This document shows, in pieces, positions 30,855 through 40,846 of a stretch of 64,000 nucleotides of DNA. The translations under genes were made by a program, and so were the position numbers. The notes beneath the pieces are model-generated. The model was not told where the DNA came from. It ran no database searches and worked only from the letters and a program-made list of their open reading frames with translations. The stretch is from a virus (lineage: Duplodnaviria > Heunggongvirae > Uroviricota > Caudoviricetes > Demerecviridae). Location of the stretch: positions 48,928 through 112,927 of the IMG/VR virus record IMGVR_UViG_2974620381_000001; one strand, written 5' to 3'. Within the stretch, counting starts at the first letter, position 1, and the number at the start of each line of letters is the position of its first letter.

Positions 30855-30926
30855 GCCGTCCTAGTATAATTGGTATTATCAAGCCGTAACTGGTGGAAGA
30901 TGTAGGTTCGAATCCTACGGTCGGTA
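30855..30926 (+). tRNA. tRNA-like element; canonical T-arm, anticodon arm not resolvable
   Basis: T-arm GTAGG-TTCGAAT-CCTAC at 30902-30918; acceptor GCCGTCC/GGTCGGT with one U-U mismatch; no encoded CCA. Confidence 0.3.
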
Positions 30927-35146: not shown

Positions 35147-35221
35147 GGTTCTCAAGCTCATATGGTATGAGCACCCGGCTCATAACCGGAAGGTACGTAG
35201 GTTCGAATCCTCGGGGAGCCA
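35147..35221 (+). tRNA. tRNA-Met (anticodon CAT; fMet, Met or Ile2 not distinguishable)
   Basis: Acceptor GGTTCTC/GGGAGCC (2 G-U), anticodon loop CTCATAA, T-loop TTCGAAT, CCA encoded. Confidence 0.6.
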
Positions 35222-38443: not shown

Positions 38444-38629
38444 CCAAACAATTAGGGTACAGAGTAGGTAAAGGTAGGGGAGGTCACATATGGTCTTTAG
38501 ACGGATATGCTCTGGGGCTTCCGACTAGAAAGCTGCTTTACCGCGCCCTAGCCACAATAATTAAGCAAATCCCTCTTTTTCACAGGAGAGGGTATTTGAA
38601 GAAATTCTTACGAGAGATTCTTCAAATAT

Positions 38630-38731: not shown

Positions 38732-39079
38732 ATGATTAATGCTAAAGAAGAGTTGTTACTTGCCCTAAAGAATACTAAGTCTGAAGTTAAGTGTATTAAG
38801 ATAGAATTCGGTTATTATGGGGACAAAGAAGTCTGGGTATTACCAGTAGGTTATACAGAAAAAGATATTGAAGATTTTCTAAATAATCTAGACTTTAAAT
38901 ATGATTCTGGTTTCGGTGGACAATTGCTTTATGGTAACGTATGGTTTACTGATGGAACTTGGTTAGAACGTGGTGAATATGATGGTTCTGAATGGTGGGA
39001 ATATAAGACTACACCAGCAATCCCTGAGGAATGCCGAACAATTAATGGTGAAGTAGATAATACTTTACGGTTAAACTAA
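38732..39079 (+). CDS. hypothetical protein
   Basis: 115-aa ORF. Confidence 0.45.
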   Translation: MINAKEELLLALKNTKSEVKCIKIEFGYYGDKEVWVLPVGYTEKDIEDFLNNLDFKYDSGFGGQLLYGNVWFTDGTWLERGEYDGSEWWEYKTTPAIPEECRTINGEVDNTLRLN

Positions 39080-39201
39080 TAAAATTTCAGTGCAGAACAC
39101 GGAGCTAGCAATTCGGAAGTGCTGACTCATGATAAGCTGCCTATGTACTTGCGAAGCGGTCGTGTCCAAGACTCGGACTCTTGCACTGAAAACAATCAAA
39201 C

Positions 39202-39322
39202 ATTCTAGCGTGGTTGATGGGGAAACCAGCTTGGCGAGGGCAGAAGCTCGTTCGATTCGAGTGAAAGAATGGTTCTCGTAAGTCCGCACAAGTGATAACA
39301 GGTTCGAGTCCTGTCTAGAATG
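39202..39322 (+). ncRNA. tRNA-like element with ~48-nt insertion (121 nt between matching acceptor strands)
   Basis: 5' ATTCTAG (39202-08) is exact complement of 3' CTAGAAT (39315-21) flanking T-arm ACAGG-TTCGAGT-CCTGT (39298-39314); D-arm TGGT/ACCA present; contains a second T-arm-like hairpin GCTCG-TTCGATT-CGAGT at 39246-62. Confidence 0.3.
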
Positions 39323-39471
39323 ACACTATAAAGTTTACTTATTATGTAGGTTCCGGTAGACCGGCGGGTCTATTCTGGCATTTAAGAGAGGTCTCGCAAG
39401 CCTCTTTGTCAGCCGTGGGGTTCATAGCCTCCAGGTGGCCTACACAATAAGTAAATTTATTAAAAATTCAT

Positions 39472-39500
39472 TTGCTATTCTGCTTAATTCTCTGTATAAT
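39472..39500 (+). promoter_or_regulatory. T5-type promoter
   Basis: TTGCTA-17-TATAAT. Confidence 0.6.
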
Positions 39501-39532: not shown

Positions 39533-39730
39533 ATGAAGAAAGTTTTATTACTATCTGTATTCCTACTTACTGGTTGTTTTAAATTTGACTCAACCATTAA
39601 TAAAGAGTATGAATTTGCTAAAAATTTCTGTGGCGGGGAGAGTAATATAAAGAATTTCTACATATATAGTACAATTCCTAGTACCGTTTATTGTGTAGAC
39701 GGACGAATTATTAATATTCCTCCACAATAA
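39533..39730 (+). CDS. small lipoprotein
   Basis: 65 aa; signal peptide with lipobox LLTGC; promoter 39472-39500. Confidence 0.45.
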   Translation: MKKVLLLSVFLLTGCFKFDSTINKEYEFAKNFCGGESNIKNFYIYSTIPSTVYCVDGRIINIPPQ

Positions 39731-40215: not shown

Positions 40216-40459
40216 TTTATATAAATTGATGAGAAGAGATCCTCATCATAGTTCACTAAGGTATTAGCTCGACCTAGGACTGGCTGCCAAAAAGCACGAT
40301 CCCTACGATTCGGGAGAAGTTCTAGATTAGTCCACTAGATTCAGCGGCAACTGAATAGTGTATCGGGTTTGCGAGATGACGCGGTTCCTTCCGCTTGAAG
40401 CGAAGGTGCTGTAGTTACGCCGAGCTAATAGCCTTAGTAAACTTACAGGGGTTAACGCA

Positions 40460-40846
40460 GTGTGTACAAAAACATGTAGAGCCTGTGGGAATGAATATCC
40501 GTTAACAACCGAATATTTTTATTCGAATGGATTTACTCCTAATGGCACAAAGAAGTGGAAGCCAACATGTAAAGCATGTGAAAAAGCTGAACGAGTAGCT
40601 GGACATGAAGAATTAATTAAAGAAGTATTTCCTGTATTAGAATGTAGTATTTGTGGATATAATAGGTGTAAACAAGCCCTAGATTTCCACCATACTAATC
40701 CAGAAGAAAAGGAATACTCCATTGCAAGGTTTAGAACTTCTCGTAGAAACAGAGAAGTAGTAATAGCAGAACTTAAAAAGTGCGTACTATTATGCTCTAA
40801 CTGCCATAGAGAAGTACATGCTGGATTAATAAATTTGGGCGAATAG
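40460..40846 (+). CDS. HNH endonuclease
   Basis: 128 aa, GTG start; Cys-rich N-terminus and HNH motif DFHHTNPEEK...NCHREVH. Confidence 0.65.
   Translation: MCTKTCRACGNEYPLTTEYFYSNGFTPNGTKKWKPTCKACEKAERVAGHEELIKEVFPVLECSICGYNRCKQALDFHHTNPEEKEYSIARFRTSRRNREVVIAELKKCVLLCSNCHREVHAGLINLGE

What the first reader, a model, noticed from the sequence alone, without database searches (positions are those of the whole stretch)
39085..39445. Highly structured 360-nt non-coding element with tRNA-like pieces and a 121-nt 'interrupted tRNA'
ATTCTAG (39202-08) and CTAGAAT (39315-21) are exact acceptor-type complements flanking a perfect T-arm (39298-39314) and a D-arm. They are 121 nt apart, about 48 nt longer than a tRNA. 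The extra sequence includes a second T-arm-like hairpin (39246-62). Upstream, TCAGTGCA (39087-94) pairs with TGCACTGA (39183-90). Downstream, GTAGG...CCTAC encloses hairpins CCGG-TAGA-CCGG and AGAGG...CCTCT. This could be a tRNA carrying an intervening sequence, fused or degenerate tRNAs, or a novel structured RNA.
Basis: seen in the sequence. Interest (0 to 1): 0.55.

Follow-up and report, generated by a model that had tools for sequence, protein, structure and literature searches.

The report
Phage tRNA look-alike, anticodon loop replaced
The 360-nt stretch is three separate non-coding RNA modules of a T5-like phage; the middle one (phage T5's long-annotated but unexplained "RNA2") belongs to a widespread, apparently undescribed family of phage tRNA look-alikes whose anticodon loop is replaced by a conserved folded module.

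Summary

1. **39202-39322** is the orthologue of phage T5 "RNA2". T5/BF23 GenBank records annotate it as a "tRNA-like stable RNA with unknown functions".
2. **39344-39446** is T5 "RNAIV". It is a separate structured RNA with compensatory changes and a 13-bp flanking processing stem.
3. **39085-39191** is an unannotated, highly conserved hairpin domain of unresolved status.

**New here:** RNA2 is not a T5 oddity. About 50 distinct copies occur in Demerecviridae, Acinetobacter T4-like phages and 50-570 kb environmental phage contigs. They always lie co-oriented in tRNA arrays.

All copies share a tRNA shell (acceptor, D, anticodon-type and T stems, all covarying). In place of the anticodon loop they carry a conserved 45-58-nt three-way junction. 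This junction presents a second T-loop hairpin and a UGG loop. The apparent "U-CCG-CA" anticodon is partly base-paired (GGGY/NUCC).

Only 4 of 53 copies encode CCA, against 301 of 333 neighbouring tRNAs. No Rfam family covers the RNA. Members with a canonical shell score as "tRNA with a 51-nt insertion".

**Best reading:** a non-decoding tRNA mimic processed like a tRNA. The function is inferred, not shown.

The parts
39085..39191 (+). Upstream hairpin domain ('domain A'), closed by a perfect 10-bp stem TTTCAGTGCA (39085-94) / TGCACTGAAA (39182-91). It is not annotated in T5 or BF23, and its status is unresolved.
   Evidence: The inverted repeat is found. The fold is -32.6 kcal/mol with z = -1.9. 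It occurs in 220 phage records, all at least 94% identical. There are no compensatory changes and no Rfam hit. In SP01 (L005) it directly follows a tRNA 3' end.
39201..39325 (+). RNA2 orthologue, a tRNA-like stable RNA. Coordinates are transferred from the T5 annotation. The covariance-model match is 39202-39322.
   Evidence: T5 AY543070 rna2 maps here at 96.6% identity, and BF23 also annotates it. Model R1 scores 139 bits and this is the only member in the window.
39202..39208 (+). Acceptor stem, 5' strand. It pairs with 39315-39321.
   Evidence: Seven pairs, all with double-sided changes across 50 copies; 91% of cells paired.
39211..39228 (+). D-arm: TGGTT / GATGGGGA / AACCA.
   Evidence: Read from the sequence. 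A perfect 3-5 bp D-stem with a GG-containing loop is found in 39 of 50 copies.
39229..39233 (+). Anticodon-type stem, 5' strand (GCTTG). It pairs with 39289-39293 (CAAGT).
   Evidence: Five pairs, all with double-sided changes; 97.5% paired.
39234..39282 (+). Conserved insert replacing the anticodon loop. Its elements are:
- internal-loop nucleotides 39234-37
- helix Pa 39238-41 (GGGC), pairing with 39282-85 (GUCC)
- helix Pb 39243-44 / 39276-77
- T-loop hairpin H1 39246-50 / 39258-62, with loop UUCGAUU 39251-57
- mini-hairpin H2 39267-69 / 39273-75, with UGG loop 39270-72
- bulge GUAA 39278-81
   Evidence: Mutual-information scan, pair statistics and Infernal alignment counts. H1 has 4 of 5 pairs covarying. 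The Pb pair 52-117 shows UA20/AU12/GC11. H2 pair 83-113 shows UA19/AU14/GC4/CG2. The Pa Y:N pair shows UA24/CG8/other18.
39283..39288 (+). Invariant UCCGCA, the 3' side of the former anticodon loop. U-C-C pairs with GGG of the insert, and GCA lies in an internal loop.
   Evidence: Invariant in all pattern-independent relatives except ZZ1 (ACCAUA) and L145 (GCCGCA). The Pa helix is supported.
39298..39314 (+). T-arm: ACAGG / TTCGAGT / CCTGT.
   Evidence: Five pairs, 98-100% paired, four of them with double-sided changes.
39315..39325 (+). Acceptor stem 3' strand (39315-21), discriminator G39322 and tail ACA. This is not CCA.
   Evidence: Read from the sequence. Only 4 of 53 distinct copies encode CCA, versus 301 of 333 neighbouring tRNAs.
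39331..39458 (+). RNAIV precursor hairpin. An invariant 13-bp outer stem (39331-43 / 39446-58) flanks mature RNAIV.
   Evidence: RNAalifold consensus. The outer stem lies just outside the ends annotated for T5 rnaIV.
39344..39446 (+). RNAIV orthologue, a stable structured RNA. It consists of an inner stem 39346-54 / 39434-43 enclosing hairpins 39355-62/39367-74, 39385-92/39400-07 (inside helix 39375-79/39408-12) and 39417-22/39426-31.
   Evidence: T5 and BF23 annotate rnaIV here. RNAalifold predicts 49 pairs, 10 of them with compensatory change. It occurs in 407 phage records, all T5-like.

Best explanation
The stretch lies inside a polycistronic tRNA/mRNA transcription unit of a T5-like phage. 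It encodes three independent RNA modules.

**Central module (39202-39322).** This is the orthologue of T5 RNA2. It is a tRNA-shaped RNA with acceptor stem, D-arm, 5-bp anticodon-type stem, short variable loop and T-arm. Its 7-nt anticodon loop is replaced by a conserved module of about 55 nt. The module has these parts:
- an internal loop
- a 4-bp helix GGGY/NUCC, which sequesters the first three bases of the invariant UCCGCA
- a GUAA bulge
- a 2-bp helix
- a three-way junction carrying a second T-loop hairpin (GUUCGAUUC) and a small hairpin or strand that presents UGG

*Inferred:* the UGG docks on the second T-loop, as D-loop G18-G19 dock on the T-loop in tRNA. This would give a second 'elbow' at the anticodon end.

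*Inferred from the shell and from its placement among tRNAs:* the RNA is cut out by the tRNA-processing machinery (RNase P at the 5' end, exonucleases at the 3' end) and accumulates as a stable RNA of about 125 nt.

It has no free anticodon and usually no encoded CCA. It is therefore most likely not a decoding or amino-acid-carrying tRNA. The most likely role is a tRNA mimic. It would engage a tRNA-recognising partner through its L-shaped body. Candidate partners are a host tRNA-directed defence or stress nuclease, a processing or modification enzyme, or the ribosome. The conserved module would confer specificity or block catalysis. This functional step is inference only.

**RNAIV (39344-39446).** This is a separate T5-group structured RNA. 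It is released from a long flanking stem.

**Upstream hairpin (39085-39191).** This is conserved, but its role is unresolved.
For: **Identity.** The region is 100% identical to Salmonella phage PHB06 and 96.6% identical to T5. T5 and BF23 annotate rna2 ('tRNA-like stable RNA with unknown functions') and rnaIV at the same positions.

**Family.**
- Pattern scans found copies in Demerecviridae genera, in Acinetobacter T4-like phages 133 and ZZ1, and in 50 metagenome contigs.
- Viral contigs carrying it range from about 50 to 363 kb, and one metagenome contig is 570 kb.
- Covariance model R1 separates 81 members (42-141 bits) from ordinary tRNAs (15-40 bits).

**Structure.**
- 93.5% of cells are paired versus 59.6% in shuffles (0 of 500 reach the observed value).
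- The covariation score is 0.797 versus 0.159.
- 25 of 31 pairs show double-sided changes. Slid controls give 31-53%.
- An independent mutual-information scan recovers the same helices.

**tRNA shell.**
- Rfam RF00005 matches L081 and L067 end-to-end at 48-51 bits, with the insertion inside the anticodon loop.
- ARAGORN in intron mode calls a 121-nt tRNA with a 48-nt insert.

**Not a translation substrate.** CCA is encoded in 4 of 53 copies versus 301 of 333 neighbouring tRNAs. Acceptor stems and discriminators vary freely (A19/U17/G7/C7).

**Context.**
- All 333 neighbouring tRNAs are co-oriented, at a median distance of 39 nt.
- No terminator or promoter lies between the upstream tRNAs and 39472.
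- The RNA is absent from 5,426 E. coli genomes.

**RNAIV.** 49 pairs, 10 of them compensatory.
Against: - No experiment was available here. 'Stable RNA' rests only on the depositors' GenBank notes.
- The ends, any CCA addition, aminoacylation and binding partners are unknown.
- The alignment used for pair counts was fitted to the model, which inflates pairing.
- The Pa Y:N pair is non-canonical (mostly U-U) in 18 of 50 copies.
- The H2 mini-hairpin cannot form in KPN4-type copies.
- The T-loop/UGG docking is inferred by analogy only.
- The host CCA-adding enzyme could still add CCA.
- No conserved protein partner is encoded nearby, so the mimicry target is a guess.
- A decoy would not obviously need such a strongly conserved module.
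- The window's own copy fails the Rfam tRNA threshold (18 bits).
Confidence: 0.6

Rival explanations
1. It is a genuine tRNA gene interrupted by a 48-nt intervening sequence. The insert is removed, leaving a 73-nt tRNA with a 7-nt loop N-U-CCG-C-A (anticodon CCG, Arg).
For: - Excising the insert leaves exactly a 5-bp stem plus a 7-nt loop with U33 and A38.
- UCCGCA is invariant.
- Rfam's tRNA model accepts canonical-shell members with the insertion in the anticodon loop.
- Pairing between an anticodon and an intron is known from eukaryotic pre-tRNAs (general knowledge).
Against: - The insert is the most conserved part of the RNA, unlike protein-spliced tRNA introns.
- The only bacterial tRNA introns I know of are group I introns, which I recall as well over 200 nt, and no ribozyme family matches.
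- T5 and BF23 annotate the full 125-nt form as the stable RNA.
- CCA is absent in 92% of copies, although 90% of neighbouring tRNAs encode it.
- Position 37 would be C.
- The shells lack a conserved Arg-type identity. For example, position 20 reads as U in L081 and L067 (read), and acceptors and discriminators vary.
Confidence: 0.07
2. It is a cis-acting processing ('punctuation') element. The tRNA-like fold merely recruits RNase P and other RNases to cut the polycistronic transcript, and the stable RNA is a by-product.
For: - It lies between an ORF and downstream modules in a unit with no internal terminator or promoter.
- It always sits within tRNA arrays, close to tRNAs.
- RNAIV next to it has an obvious processing stem.
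Against: - An ordinary tRNA or a bare acceptor/T minihelix would suffice for RNase P.
- This does not explain the invariant nucleotides and covarying helices of the insert across very distant phages.
- Many copies sit directly between two tRNAs, where no extra punctuation is needed.
Confidence: 0.12
3. It is a translation- or ribosome-directed RNA, related in logic to tmRNA or ribosome rescue. It might act together with phage RF-1/GGQ-domain proteins.
For: - It has a tRNA-like body with a bulky module where SmpB or the anticodon arm would sit.
- In phage ZZ1 the RNA lies immediately upstream of a 76-aa RF-1-domain gene. Three other lineages carry RF-1/PCRF proteins within the fetched loci.
Against: - There is no tag ORF, resume codon or pseudoknots, and ARAGORN's tmRNA mode is negative on 10 lineages.
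- CCA is mostly absent.
- No RF-1-motif ORF was found in any of the T5-like loci held, and no other protein is linked across lineages.
- KPN4 has a 1-nt deletion that breaks the only short ORF-like stretch.
Confidence: 0.1
4. The insert is a ligand-binding aptamer or a small self-cleaving ribozyme, and the tRNA merely hosts it.
For: It is a compact three-way junction with many invariant unpaired nucleotides (GUAA, GCA, UGG, GGG).
Against: - No Rfam ribozyme or riboswitch model matches even at E<=10.
- The junction strands do not fit the hammerhead core (read).
- There is no adjacent regulated gene, as the RNA sits among tRNAs.
Confidence: 0.07
5. It is non-functional debris: fused or degenerate tRNA genes left by recombination in the tRNA array.
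For: - tRNA arrays recombine. SHSML-45 has a deletion joining the RNA2 3' end to the tRNA-Pro 3' end.
- The RNA2 T-arm shares 15 identical nt with tRNA-Pro.
- The Acinetobacter copies have a degenerate acceptor/D part.
Against: - There are 25 covarying pairs across about 50 lineages from different phage families.
- Insert nucleotides are invariant.
- The RNA is present as a single copy in tRNA arrays of very distant phages.
Confidence: 0.02

Closest known systems
Phage T5 / BF23 RNA2 and RNAIV (GenBank AY543070, NC_042564 misc_RNA features)
   Same: Orthologous. The sequence is 96.6% identical, in the same order and position, after the T5.067-like ORF and before promoter P13a.
   Different: Nothing substantive differs. 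BF23 and Epseptimavirus phages have a tRNA-Gly inserted between the two RNAs. The published annotation gives no structure, family or function.
Canonical tRNA (Rfam RF00005)
   Same: It has a 7-bp acceptor stem, a D-arm with GG, a 5-bp anticodon-type stem, a 3-5-nt variable loop, a T-arm with UUCRA T-loop, and a location in tRNA arrays. Canonical-shell relatives pass the Rfam threshold.
   Different: It has no 7-nt anticodon loop and no free anticodon. CCA is rarely encoded. The window copy scores below the Rfam threshold and is not called by ARAGORN.
tmRNA (tRNA-like domain plus mRNA-like domain)
   Same: Same topology: the 5' and 3' ends form an acceptor/T-arm tRNA-like part, and a foreign domain replaces the anticodon region.
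   Different: It is about 120 nt, whereas tmRNAs as I recall them are roughly 260-400 nt. It has a real D-stem. It has no tag ORF, no pseudoknots, no conserved Ala identity and mostly no CCA. ARAGORN's tmRNA mode is negative.
Bacterial Y RNA-like YrlA (Rfam RF02553)
   Same: It is a non-coding RNA containing a tRNA-like T-arm/D-arm 'elbow' module. The insert of RNA2 is itself such a mini-elbow on top of a stem.
   Different: The topology is permuted, because YrlA ends form the Ro-binding stem. There is no Ro-binding motif and no rsr neighbour. Rfam gives 23.8 bits against a gathering score of 69 on a relative, and no hit in the window.
Intron-containing pre-tRNAs (archaeal/eukaryal, or bacterial group I in tRNA)
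   Same: The insertion lies inside the anticodon loop, and the insert pairs with anticodon nucleotides.
   Different: The insert sits on the 5' side of the would-be anticodon, not at position 37/38. It is far too short for a group I intron and is very strongly conserved. The unspliced form is the annotated stable RNA.
Phage T4 stable RNAs rnaC/rnaD (species 1 and 2)
   Same: They are stable RNAs of unknown function encoded at the end of a phage tRNA cluster. rnaC also ends with a T-arm and an ...ACA tail.
   Different: They are not detected by model R1 and lack the GGGYWG / CGUAANUCCGCA signature. No homology was shown.

Membership tests
T5 RNA2 / RNAIV (annotated stable RNAs of Tequintavirus) | Sequence orthology and synteny with the annotated misc_RNA features | tested here: met
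   96.6% identity to AY543070. rna2 maps to 39201-39325 and rnaIV to 39344-39446.
T5 RNA2 / RNAIV (annotated stable RNAs of Tequintavirus) | Accumulation as discrete stable RNAs in infected cells | not testable with these tools
   Only the depositors' notes ('stable RNA') are available. No expression data were found in the literature library.
tRNA (Rfam RF00005 / ARAGORN) | Cloverleaf stems (acceptor 7 bp, D, anticodon stem 5 bp, T 5 bp with T-loop) | tested here: met
   All stems covary. A D-stem is present in 39 of 50 copies.
tRNA (Rfam RF00005 / ARAGORN) | 7-nt anticodon loop with an unpaired anticodon | tested here: not met
   The loop is replaced by 1 nt, a 45-58-nt insert and UCCGCA. U-C-C pairs with GGG, and the Y:N pair covaries.
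tRNA (Rfam RF00005 / ARAGORN) | Score at or above the family's gathering threshold, or a call by ARAGORN with default settings | tested here: not met
   The window copy has no ARAGORN call and scores 18 bits against a threshold of 29. Relatives L081 and L067 do pass, at 50.6 and 47.9 bits, with the insert treated as an insertion.
tRNA (Rfam RF00005 / ARAGORN) | 3' CCA end and aminoacylation | tested here: inconclusive
   CCA is encoded in 4 of 53 copies versus 301 of 333 neighbouring tRNAs. Post-transcriptional CCA addition and charging cannot be tested here.
tmRNA | Tag-peptide reading frame with resume codon, pseudoknots, Ala identity (G3-U70), CCA | tested here: not met
   ARAGORN -m is negative for 10 lineages. 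Acceptor stems vary. The only ORF-like stretch is broken by an indel in KPN4.
Intron-containing tRNA | Insertion within the anticodon loop | tested here: met
   ARAGORN -i and the Rfam alignment.
Intron-containing tRNA | Removal of the insert to give a mature decoding tRNA, or recognisable group I / bulge-helix-bulge features | tested here: inconclusive
   No intron or ribozyme family matches. The annotated stable form is unspliced. Splicing itself cannot be tested here.
YrlA / bacterial Y RNA | Match to RF02553, a Ro-binding stem formed by the 5' and 3' ends, and an rsr gene nearby | tested here: not met
   No hit in the window. A relative scores 23.8 bits against 69. No conserved protein neighbour was found.
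T4 rnaC/rnaD | Detectable sequence or structure homology | tested here: not met
   Model R1 hits only tRNA-Thr and tRNA-Ile in the T4 locus L030.
Small self-cleaving ribozymes / riboswitches (Rfam) | Match to any curated model | tested here: not met
   Nothing relevant at E<=10.

The most novel reading that the evidence does not exclude
RNA2 and its relatives form a new, widespread class of phage-encoded tRNA mimics. A conserved 'second-elbow' module replaces the anticodon loop. The module targets a universally conserved tRNA-handling machine or a common tRNA-directed defence system, such as the ribosome, RNase P or an anticodon nuclease. This would make it an RNA-based host-takeover or anti-defence effector. 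It would also explain a stable T5 RNA that is still annotated 'with unknown functions'.
Probability: 0.35. Interest if true: 0.8.

Novelty: new variant of a known kind. Interest (0 to 1): 0.6.

Why it matters
Phage tRNA arrays are now understood partly as counter-defence against tRNA-cleaving immune systems. A conserved tRNA-shaped RNA that cannot decode, present from T5 to T4-like and jumbo phages, points to an RNA-level strategy that has not been characterised.

T5 RNA2 is still annotated 'with unknown functions' in the T5 and BF23 records. Placing it in a family with a covariation-supported structure makes the question directly testable, through deletion, pull-down and structure experiments.

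There are also practical annotation points:
- The family is missing from Rfam.
- The region is often mis-annotated as 'hypothetical protein', 'excisionase' or a partial tRNA-Arg in phage genomes.

Tried and rejected
- **ARAGORN and Rfam.** ARAGORN default and Rfam at gathering or E<=10 give no call in 39085-39445.
- **First core patterns.** Two patterns requiring AATGGT found only T5-like phages, Acinetobacter phage 133 and chance hits.
- **Looser pattern on genome contigs.** It gave 18 hits, of which 16 were chance matches in coding DNA. My estimate was about 30 expected by chance.
- **MAFFT alignment A1.** The alignment of full-length copies misaligned the acceptor/D and variable-loop parts, so it was not used for counting.
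- **Single-sequence MFE.** The window MFE pairing CGAGGGC/GUUCUCG was rejected. It is broken in BF23-type (CUAG) and KPN4 (CUUG) copies and is not supported by covariation.
- **CCGG-UAGA-CCGG hairpin in RNAIV.** Rejected in favour of GAUAGAUC/GGUCUAUU.
- **Linked protein genes.** Clustering of flanking ORFs found none, only HNH-like endonucleases in 8 loci.
- **RF-1 domain lead.** Present in 4 lineages only.
- **8th acceptor pair (-1:73).** Inconclusive.
- **Homology to T4 rnaC/rnaD and T5 rna3/rna2H.** None found.
- **Short ORF inside the insert (AUG GUU CUC GUA AGU CCG CAC AAG UGA).** Rejected because an indel in KPN4 breaks it.
- **Literature.** Six searches found nothing specific on RNA2 or RNAIV.
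- **Hammerhead-like reading of the D-loop or junction.** Rejected on inspection.
Full report
**What is there**

The window is a T5-like phage. The 39060-39470 region is 100% identical to Salmonella phage vB_SenS_PHB06 and 96.6% identical to T5. It lies in the tRNA gene region, which has 23 ARAGORN tRNAs and 25 Rfam tRNA hits.

No tRNA, tmRNA or Rfam family is called within 39085-39445, even at E<=10. The stretch has only short ORFs of 72 aa or less and none that looks like a gene. It is GC-rich relative to its flanks and folds into three closed domains with z = -3.0.

There is one off-by-one coordinate: TGCACTGA lies at 39182-89.

**It is annotated, and it is three things**

The T5 (AY543070) and BF23 (NC_042564) records annotate two misc_RNAs here. 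One is rna2, a 'tRNA-like stable RNA with unknown functions', equivalent to window 39201-39325. The other is rnaIV, a 'stable RNA with unknown functions', equivalent to window 39344-39446. Promoter P13a follows them. A matching TTGCTA-17-TATAAT sits at 39472-39500, and no terminator-like site or strong promoter match (at most 9 of 12 positions) lies upstream of it back to 38300.

The upstream hairpin (39085-39191) is not annotated.

The three modules behave independently in relatives:
- BF23 and Epseptimavirus phages have a tRNA-Gly between RNA2 and RNAIV.
- Some phages have an ORF between them.
- SHSML-45 has lost RNAIV.
- DT57C matches only the first 33 nt of the query.
- The upstream hairpin is replaced or absent in Epseptimavirus.

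Their distributions also differ. The upstream hairpin occurs in 220 records, all at least 94% identical. RNAIV occurs in 407 records, all T5-like. RNA2 is far wider, as described below.

**RNA2 belongs to a large family**

Partial BLAST hits to Acinetobacter phages 133 and ZZ1 (T4-like), Klebsiella Sugarlandvirus, Serratia Kamaji and Pectobacterium DU_PP_V revealed a shared core.

I then used a pattern requiring the internal T-loop, CGUAANUCCGCA and the terminal T-loop. It found 50 metagenome contigs and 43 viral contigs. These include contigs of 204, 310, 359 and 363 kb in the viral collection and one of 570 kb in the metagenome collection.

In cellular genome bins only two real copies appeared. 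One is on a 167-kb contig with 14 tRNAs in the 8-kb stretch fetched. The other is on a 330-kb 'Pseudobdellovibrionaceae' contig whose neighbourhood is small ORFans plus a MazG-like PHROG. Both look viral.

There is no match in 5,426 complete E. coli genomes.

**Structure**

Parsing about 50 distinct copies shows one architecture:
- a 7-bp acceptor stem
- positions 8-9, which are UA in most copies
- a D-arm with GG
- a 5-bp anticodon-type stem
- 1-4 loop nucleotides
- a 45-58-nt insert
- invariant UCCGCA
- the 3' strand of the stem
- a 3-5-nt variable loop
- a T-arm
- the acceptor 3' strand

A mutual-information scan of all column pairs recovered several helices in addition to the shell stems:
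- the internal hairpin H1
- a pair between the Y of GGGY and the N of CGUAAN (C-G and U-A)
- a pair adjacent to an invariant G-C (helix Pb)
- a mini-hairpin closing a UGG loop (H2)

I seeded a covariance model from six equal-length copies (A2, R1). The search gave 81 members at 42-141 bits. Ordinary tRNAs scored only 15-40 bits, matching end-to-end with the insert deleted. T4 rnaC/rnaD, T5 rna3 and rna2H were not hit. The window has one member.

On the Infernal alignment of 50 distinct copies (A4), the results were as follows:

| Measure | Observed | Shuffled | Slid controls |
|---|---|---|---|
| Cells paired | 93.5% | 59.6% (0 of 500 reach the observed value) | 31-53% |
| Covariation score | 0.797 | 0.159 | 0.06-0.14 |
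| Pairs with double-sided change | 25 of 31 | 22.5 (mean) | 10-17 |

Caveats:
- The alignment is model-fitted.
- The Y:N pair is U-U in about a third of copies.
- H2 cannot form in KPN4-type copies.

The single-sequence MFE (CGAGGGC/GUUCUCG) is not conserved and was rejected.

The consequence is that U-C-C of the apparent anticodon loop 'N-U-CCG-C-A' is paired with GGG. There is therefore no free anticodon.

The insert is a three-way junction displaying a canonical T-loop (GUUCGAUUC, nearly invariant) and a UGG. By analogy with the D-loop G18-G19 to T-loop contact in tRNA (established tRNA structural knowledge), I infer a second 'elbow' at the anticodon end.

**tRNA or not**

Canonical-shell members (L081, L067) pass Rfam's tRNA threshold at 48-51 bits, with a 51-nt insertion inside the anticodon loop. 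The T5-type copy in the window does not (18 bits). ARAGORN calls it only in relaxed intron mode, as 'tRNA-Arg(CCG) with a 48-nt intron'.

Several points argue against a decoding role:
- Only 4 of 53 distinct copies encode CCA, whereas 301 of 333 tRNAs in the same loci do.
- Acceptor stems and discriminators vary freely.
- The insert, not the shell, is the conserved part.
- The Acinetobacter copies keep the insert, anticodon-type stem and T-arm while their acceptor/D part is degenerate.
- T5 and BF23 depositors describe the full-length form as the stable RNA.

**Context**

All 333 neighbouring tRNAs are co-oriented with the RNA. The median distance to the nearest tRNA is 39 nt.

No protein family is linked across lineages. 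RF-1/GGQ-domain proteins lie nearby in four lineages and adjacent in ZZ1, but no such ORF was found in any T5-like locus held.

**RNAIV and the upstream hairpin**

RNAalifold on ten RNAIV copies gives 49 pairs, ten with compensatory changes. An invariant 13-bp outer stem (39331-43 / 39446-58) lies just outside the annotated mature ends. I infer that this is a double-strand-specific processing site; RNase III is the obvious candidate but was not tested.

The upstream hairpin has a perfect 10-bp closing stem and very high sequence conservation. However, its fold is only z = -1.9, it shows no covariation, and it has no paralogue in the window. What it is remains open.

**Mechanism: shown versus inferred**

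*Shown:*
- orthology to annotated T5 RNAs
- the family and its distribution
- the secondary structure
- the lack of a free anticodon
- the rarity of encoded CCA
- the tRNA-array context

*Inferred:*
- excision by tRNA-processing enzymes
- the second elbow
- action as a non-decoding tRNA mimic that engages a tRNA-recognising partner

I put about 0.9 on the structural and family statement and about 0.35 on the mimic or decoy function. The overall confidence is 0.6.

The rivals are an intron-containing tRNA-Arg(CCG), a pure processing signal, a ribosome- or rescue-related RNA, an aptamer or ribozyme, and debris. They are listed separately with their evidence.

**Comparison and novelty**

The locus itself is already annotated as T5 RNA2 and RNAIV. 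I found no description of the following in Rfam 15 or in the searchable literature:
- the family
- its covariation-supported structure
- the sequestration of the pseudo-anticodon
- the CCA contrast with neighbouring tRNAs
- the breadth beyond T5-like phages

Older subscription papers on the T5 tRNA region are not in the library, so prior structural proposals for RNA2 cannot be excluded.

I class it as a new variant of a known kind (tRNA-derived, tRNA-like non-coding RNA).

A looser scan shows still more divergent relatives that lack CGUAANUCCGCA, and other tRNA shells with unrelated inserts. The phenomenon may therefore be broader.

Noticed in passing
L091 5111-5225 (+); L104 303-407 (-); L145, L147, L149: More divergent relatives carry the GGGUWG + UUCGAUUC hairpin + AUGGU module inside a tRNA shell but lack CGUAANUCCGCA. 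L145 has GCCGCA. In L149 the module is followed directly by the T-arm. The L091 variant ends in A-CCA and coexists with a standard member in the same locus. This suggests a wider superfamily.
   Followed up: partly
L078 680-792 (-) (also L095, L112, L117, L127); L071 1367-1490 (-): Other tRNA-shaped RNAs of about 113-124 nt occur in phage tRNA arrays, with unrelated 33-49-nt inserts in the anticodon region. ARAGORN in intron mode calls them Gln ctg i(39,33) and Val cac i(34,49). They may be further classes of insert-bearing tRNA-likes.
   Followed up: partly
window 39071-39289 (-) and 39129-39281 (+); GenBank records: Many deposited T5-like genomes annotate a 'hypothetical protein' (once 'excisionase') across RNA2 and the upstream hairpin. 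Enterobacter phage KKP_3711 annotates the first 70 nt of its RNA2 as tRNA-Arg(ccg). These are probably spurious calls over a non-coding RNA.
   Followed up: partly
L031 728-958 (phage ZZ1); L091 10904-11480; L121 3849-4425; L126 5976-6552: Phage-encoded RF-1/GGQ-domain proteins lie near the RNA in four lineages. They are 76 aa in ZZ1, immediately downstream, and 191 aa in L091, L121 and L126 (L126 matched Pfam RF-1 and PCRF). The link is not universal.
   Followed up: partly
window 39533-39730 (+): A 65-aa ORF with a lipoprotein signal (…LLTGC) matches the PHROG 'Rz-like spanin' family (E = 5.5e-29). It sits in the middle of the tRNA region, between promoter P13a and tRNA-Pro.
   Followed up: partly
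window 30855-30926 and 35147-35221 (+): Rfam's tRNA model scores these two sites at 35.5 and 40.3 bits, above its threshold. ARAGORN does not call them. They may be atypical tRNAs or further tRNA-like RNAs.
   Followed up: no
window 38447-38629 (+): A gap of about 180 nt between tRNA-Asp and tRNA-Lys(ctt) has GC of about 0.5, against about 0.3 for nearby intergenic DNA. It contains only one long ORF, 82 aa, which begins inside tRNA-Asp. It could be another structured RNA.
   Followed up: no
window 40305-40476 (+): By coordinate transfer from T5, this GC-rich stretch corresponds to 'RNA2H', a 172-nt stable RNA of unknown function located after promoter P13b. It shows no similarity to RNA2, RNAIV or the upstream hairpin.
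   Followed up: partly
L015 (Shigella phage SHSML-45), around its RNA2 3' end: RNA2 '...CTAGAATGAC' is joined directly to 'CAAACAATTGCGGGT', the sequence that follows tRNA-Pro. This indicates a deletion of RNAIV, the spanin-like ORF and tRNA-Pro by recombination between the similar 3' ends.
   Followed up: no
L058 7053-7127 (-): In a 167-kb T4-like contig, ARAGORN calls a CUA-anticodon ('tRNA-Pyl', suppressor-like) tRNA immediately upstream of that phage's RNA2-like copy.
   Followed up: no
L030 4909-5047 (-) (phage T4 rnaC): T4 species-1 RNA ends with a T-arm (CCGGG-TTCGAAT-CCCGG), an imperfect acceptor-like 3' strand and ...UACA. This resembles the GACA tail of T5 RNA2. However, it is not detected by the RNA2 model.
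   Followed up: partly
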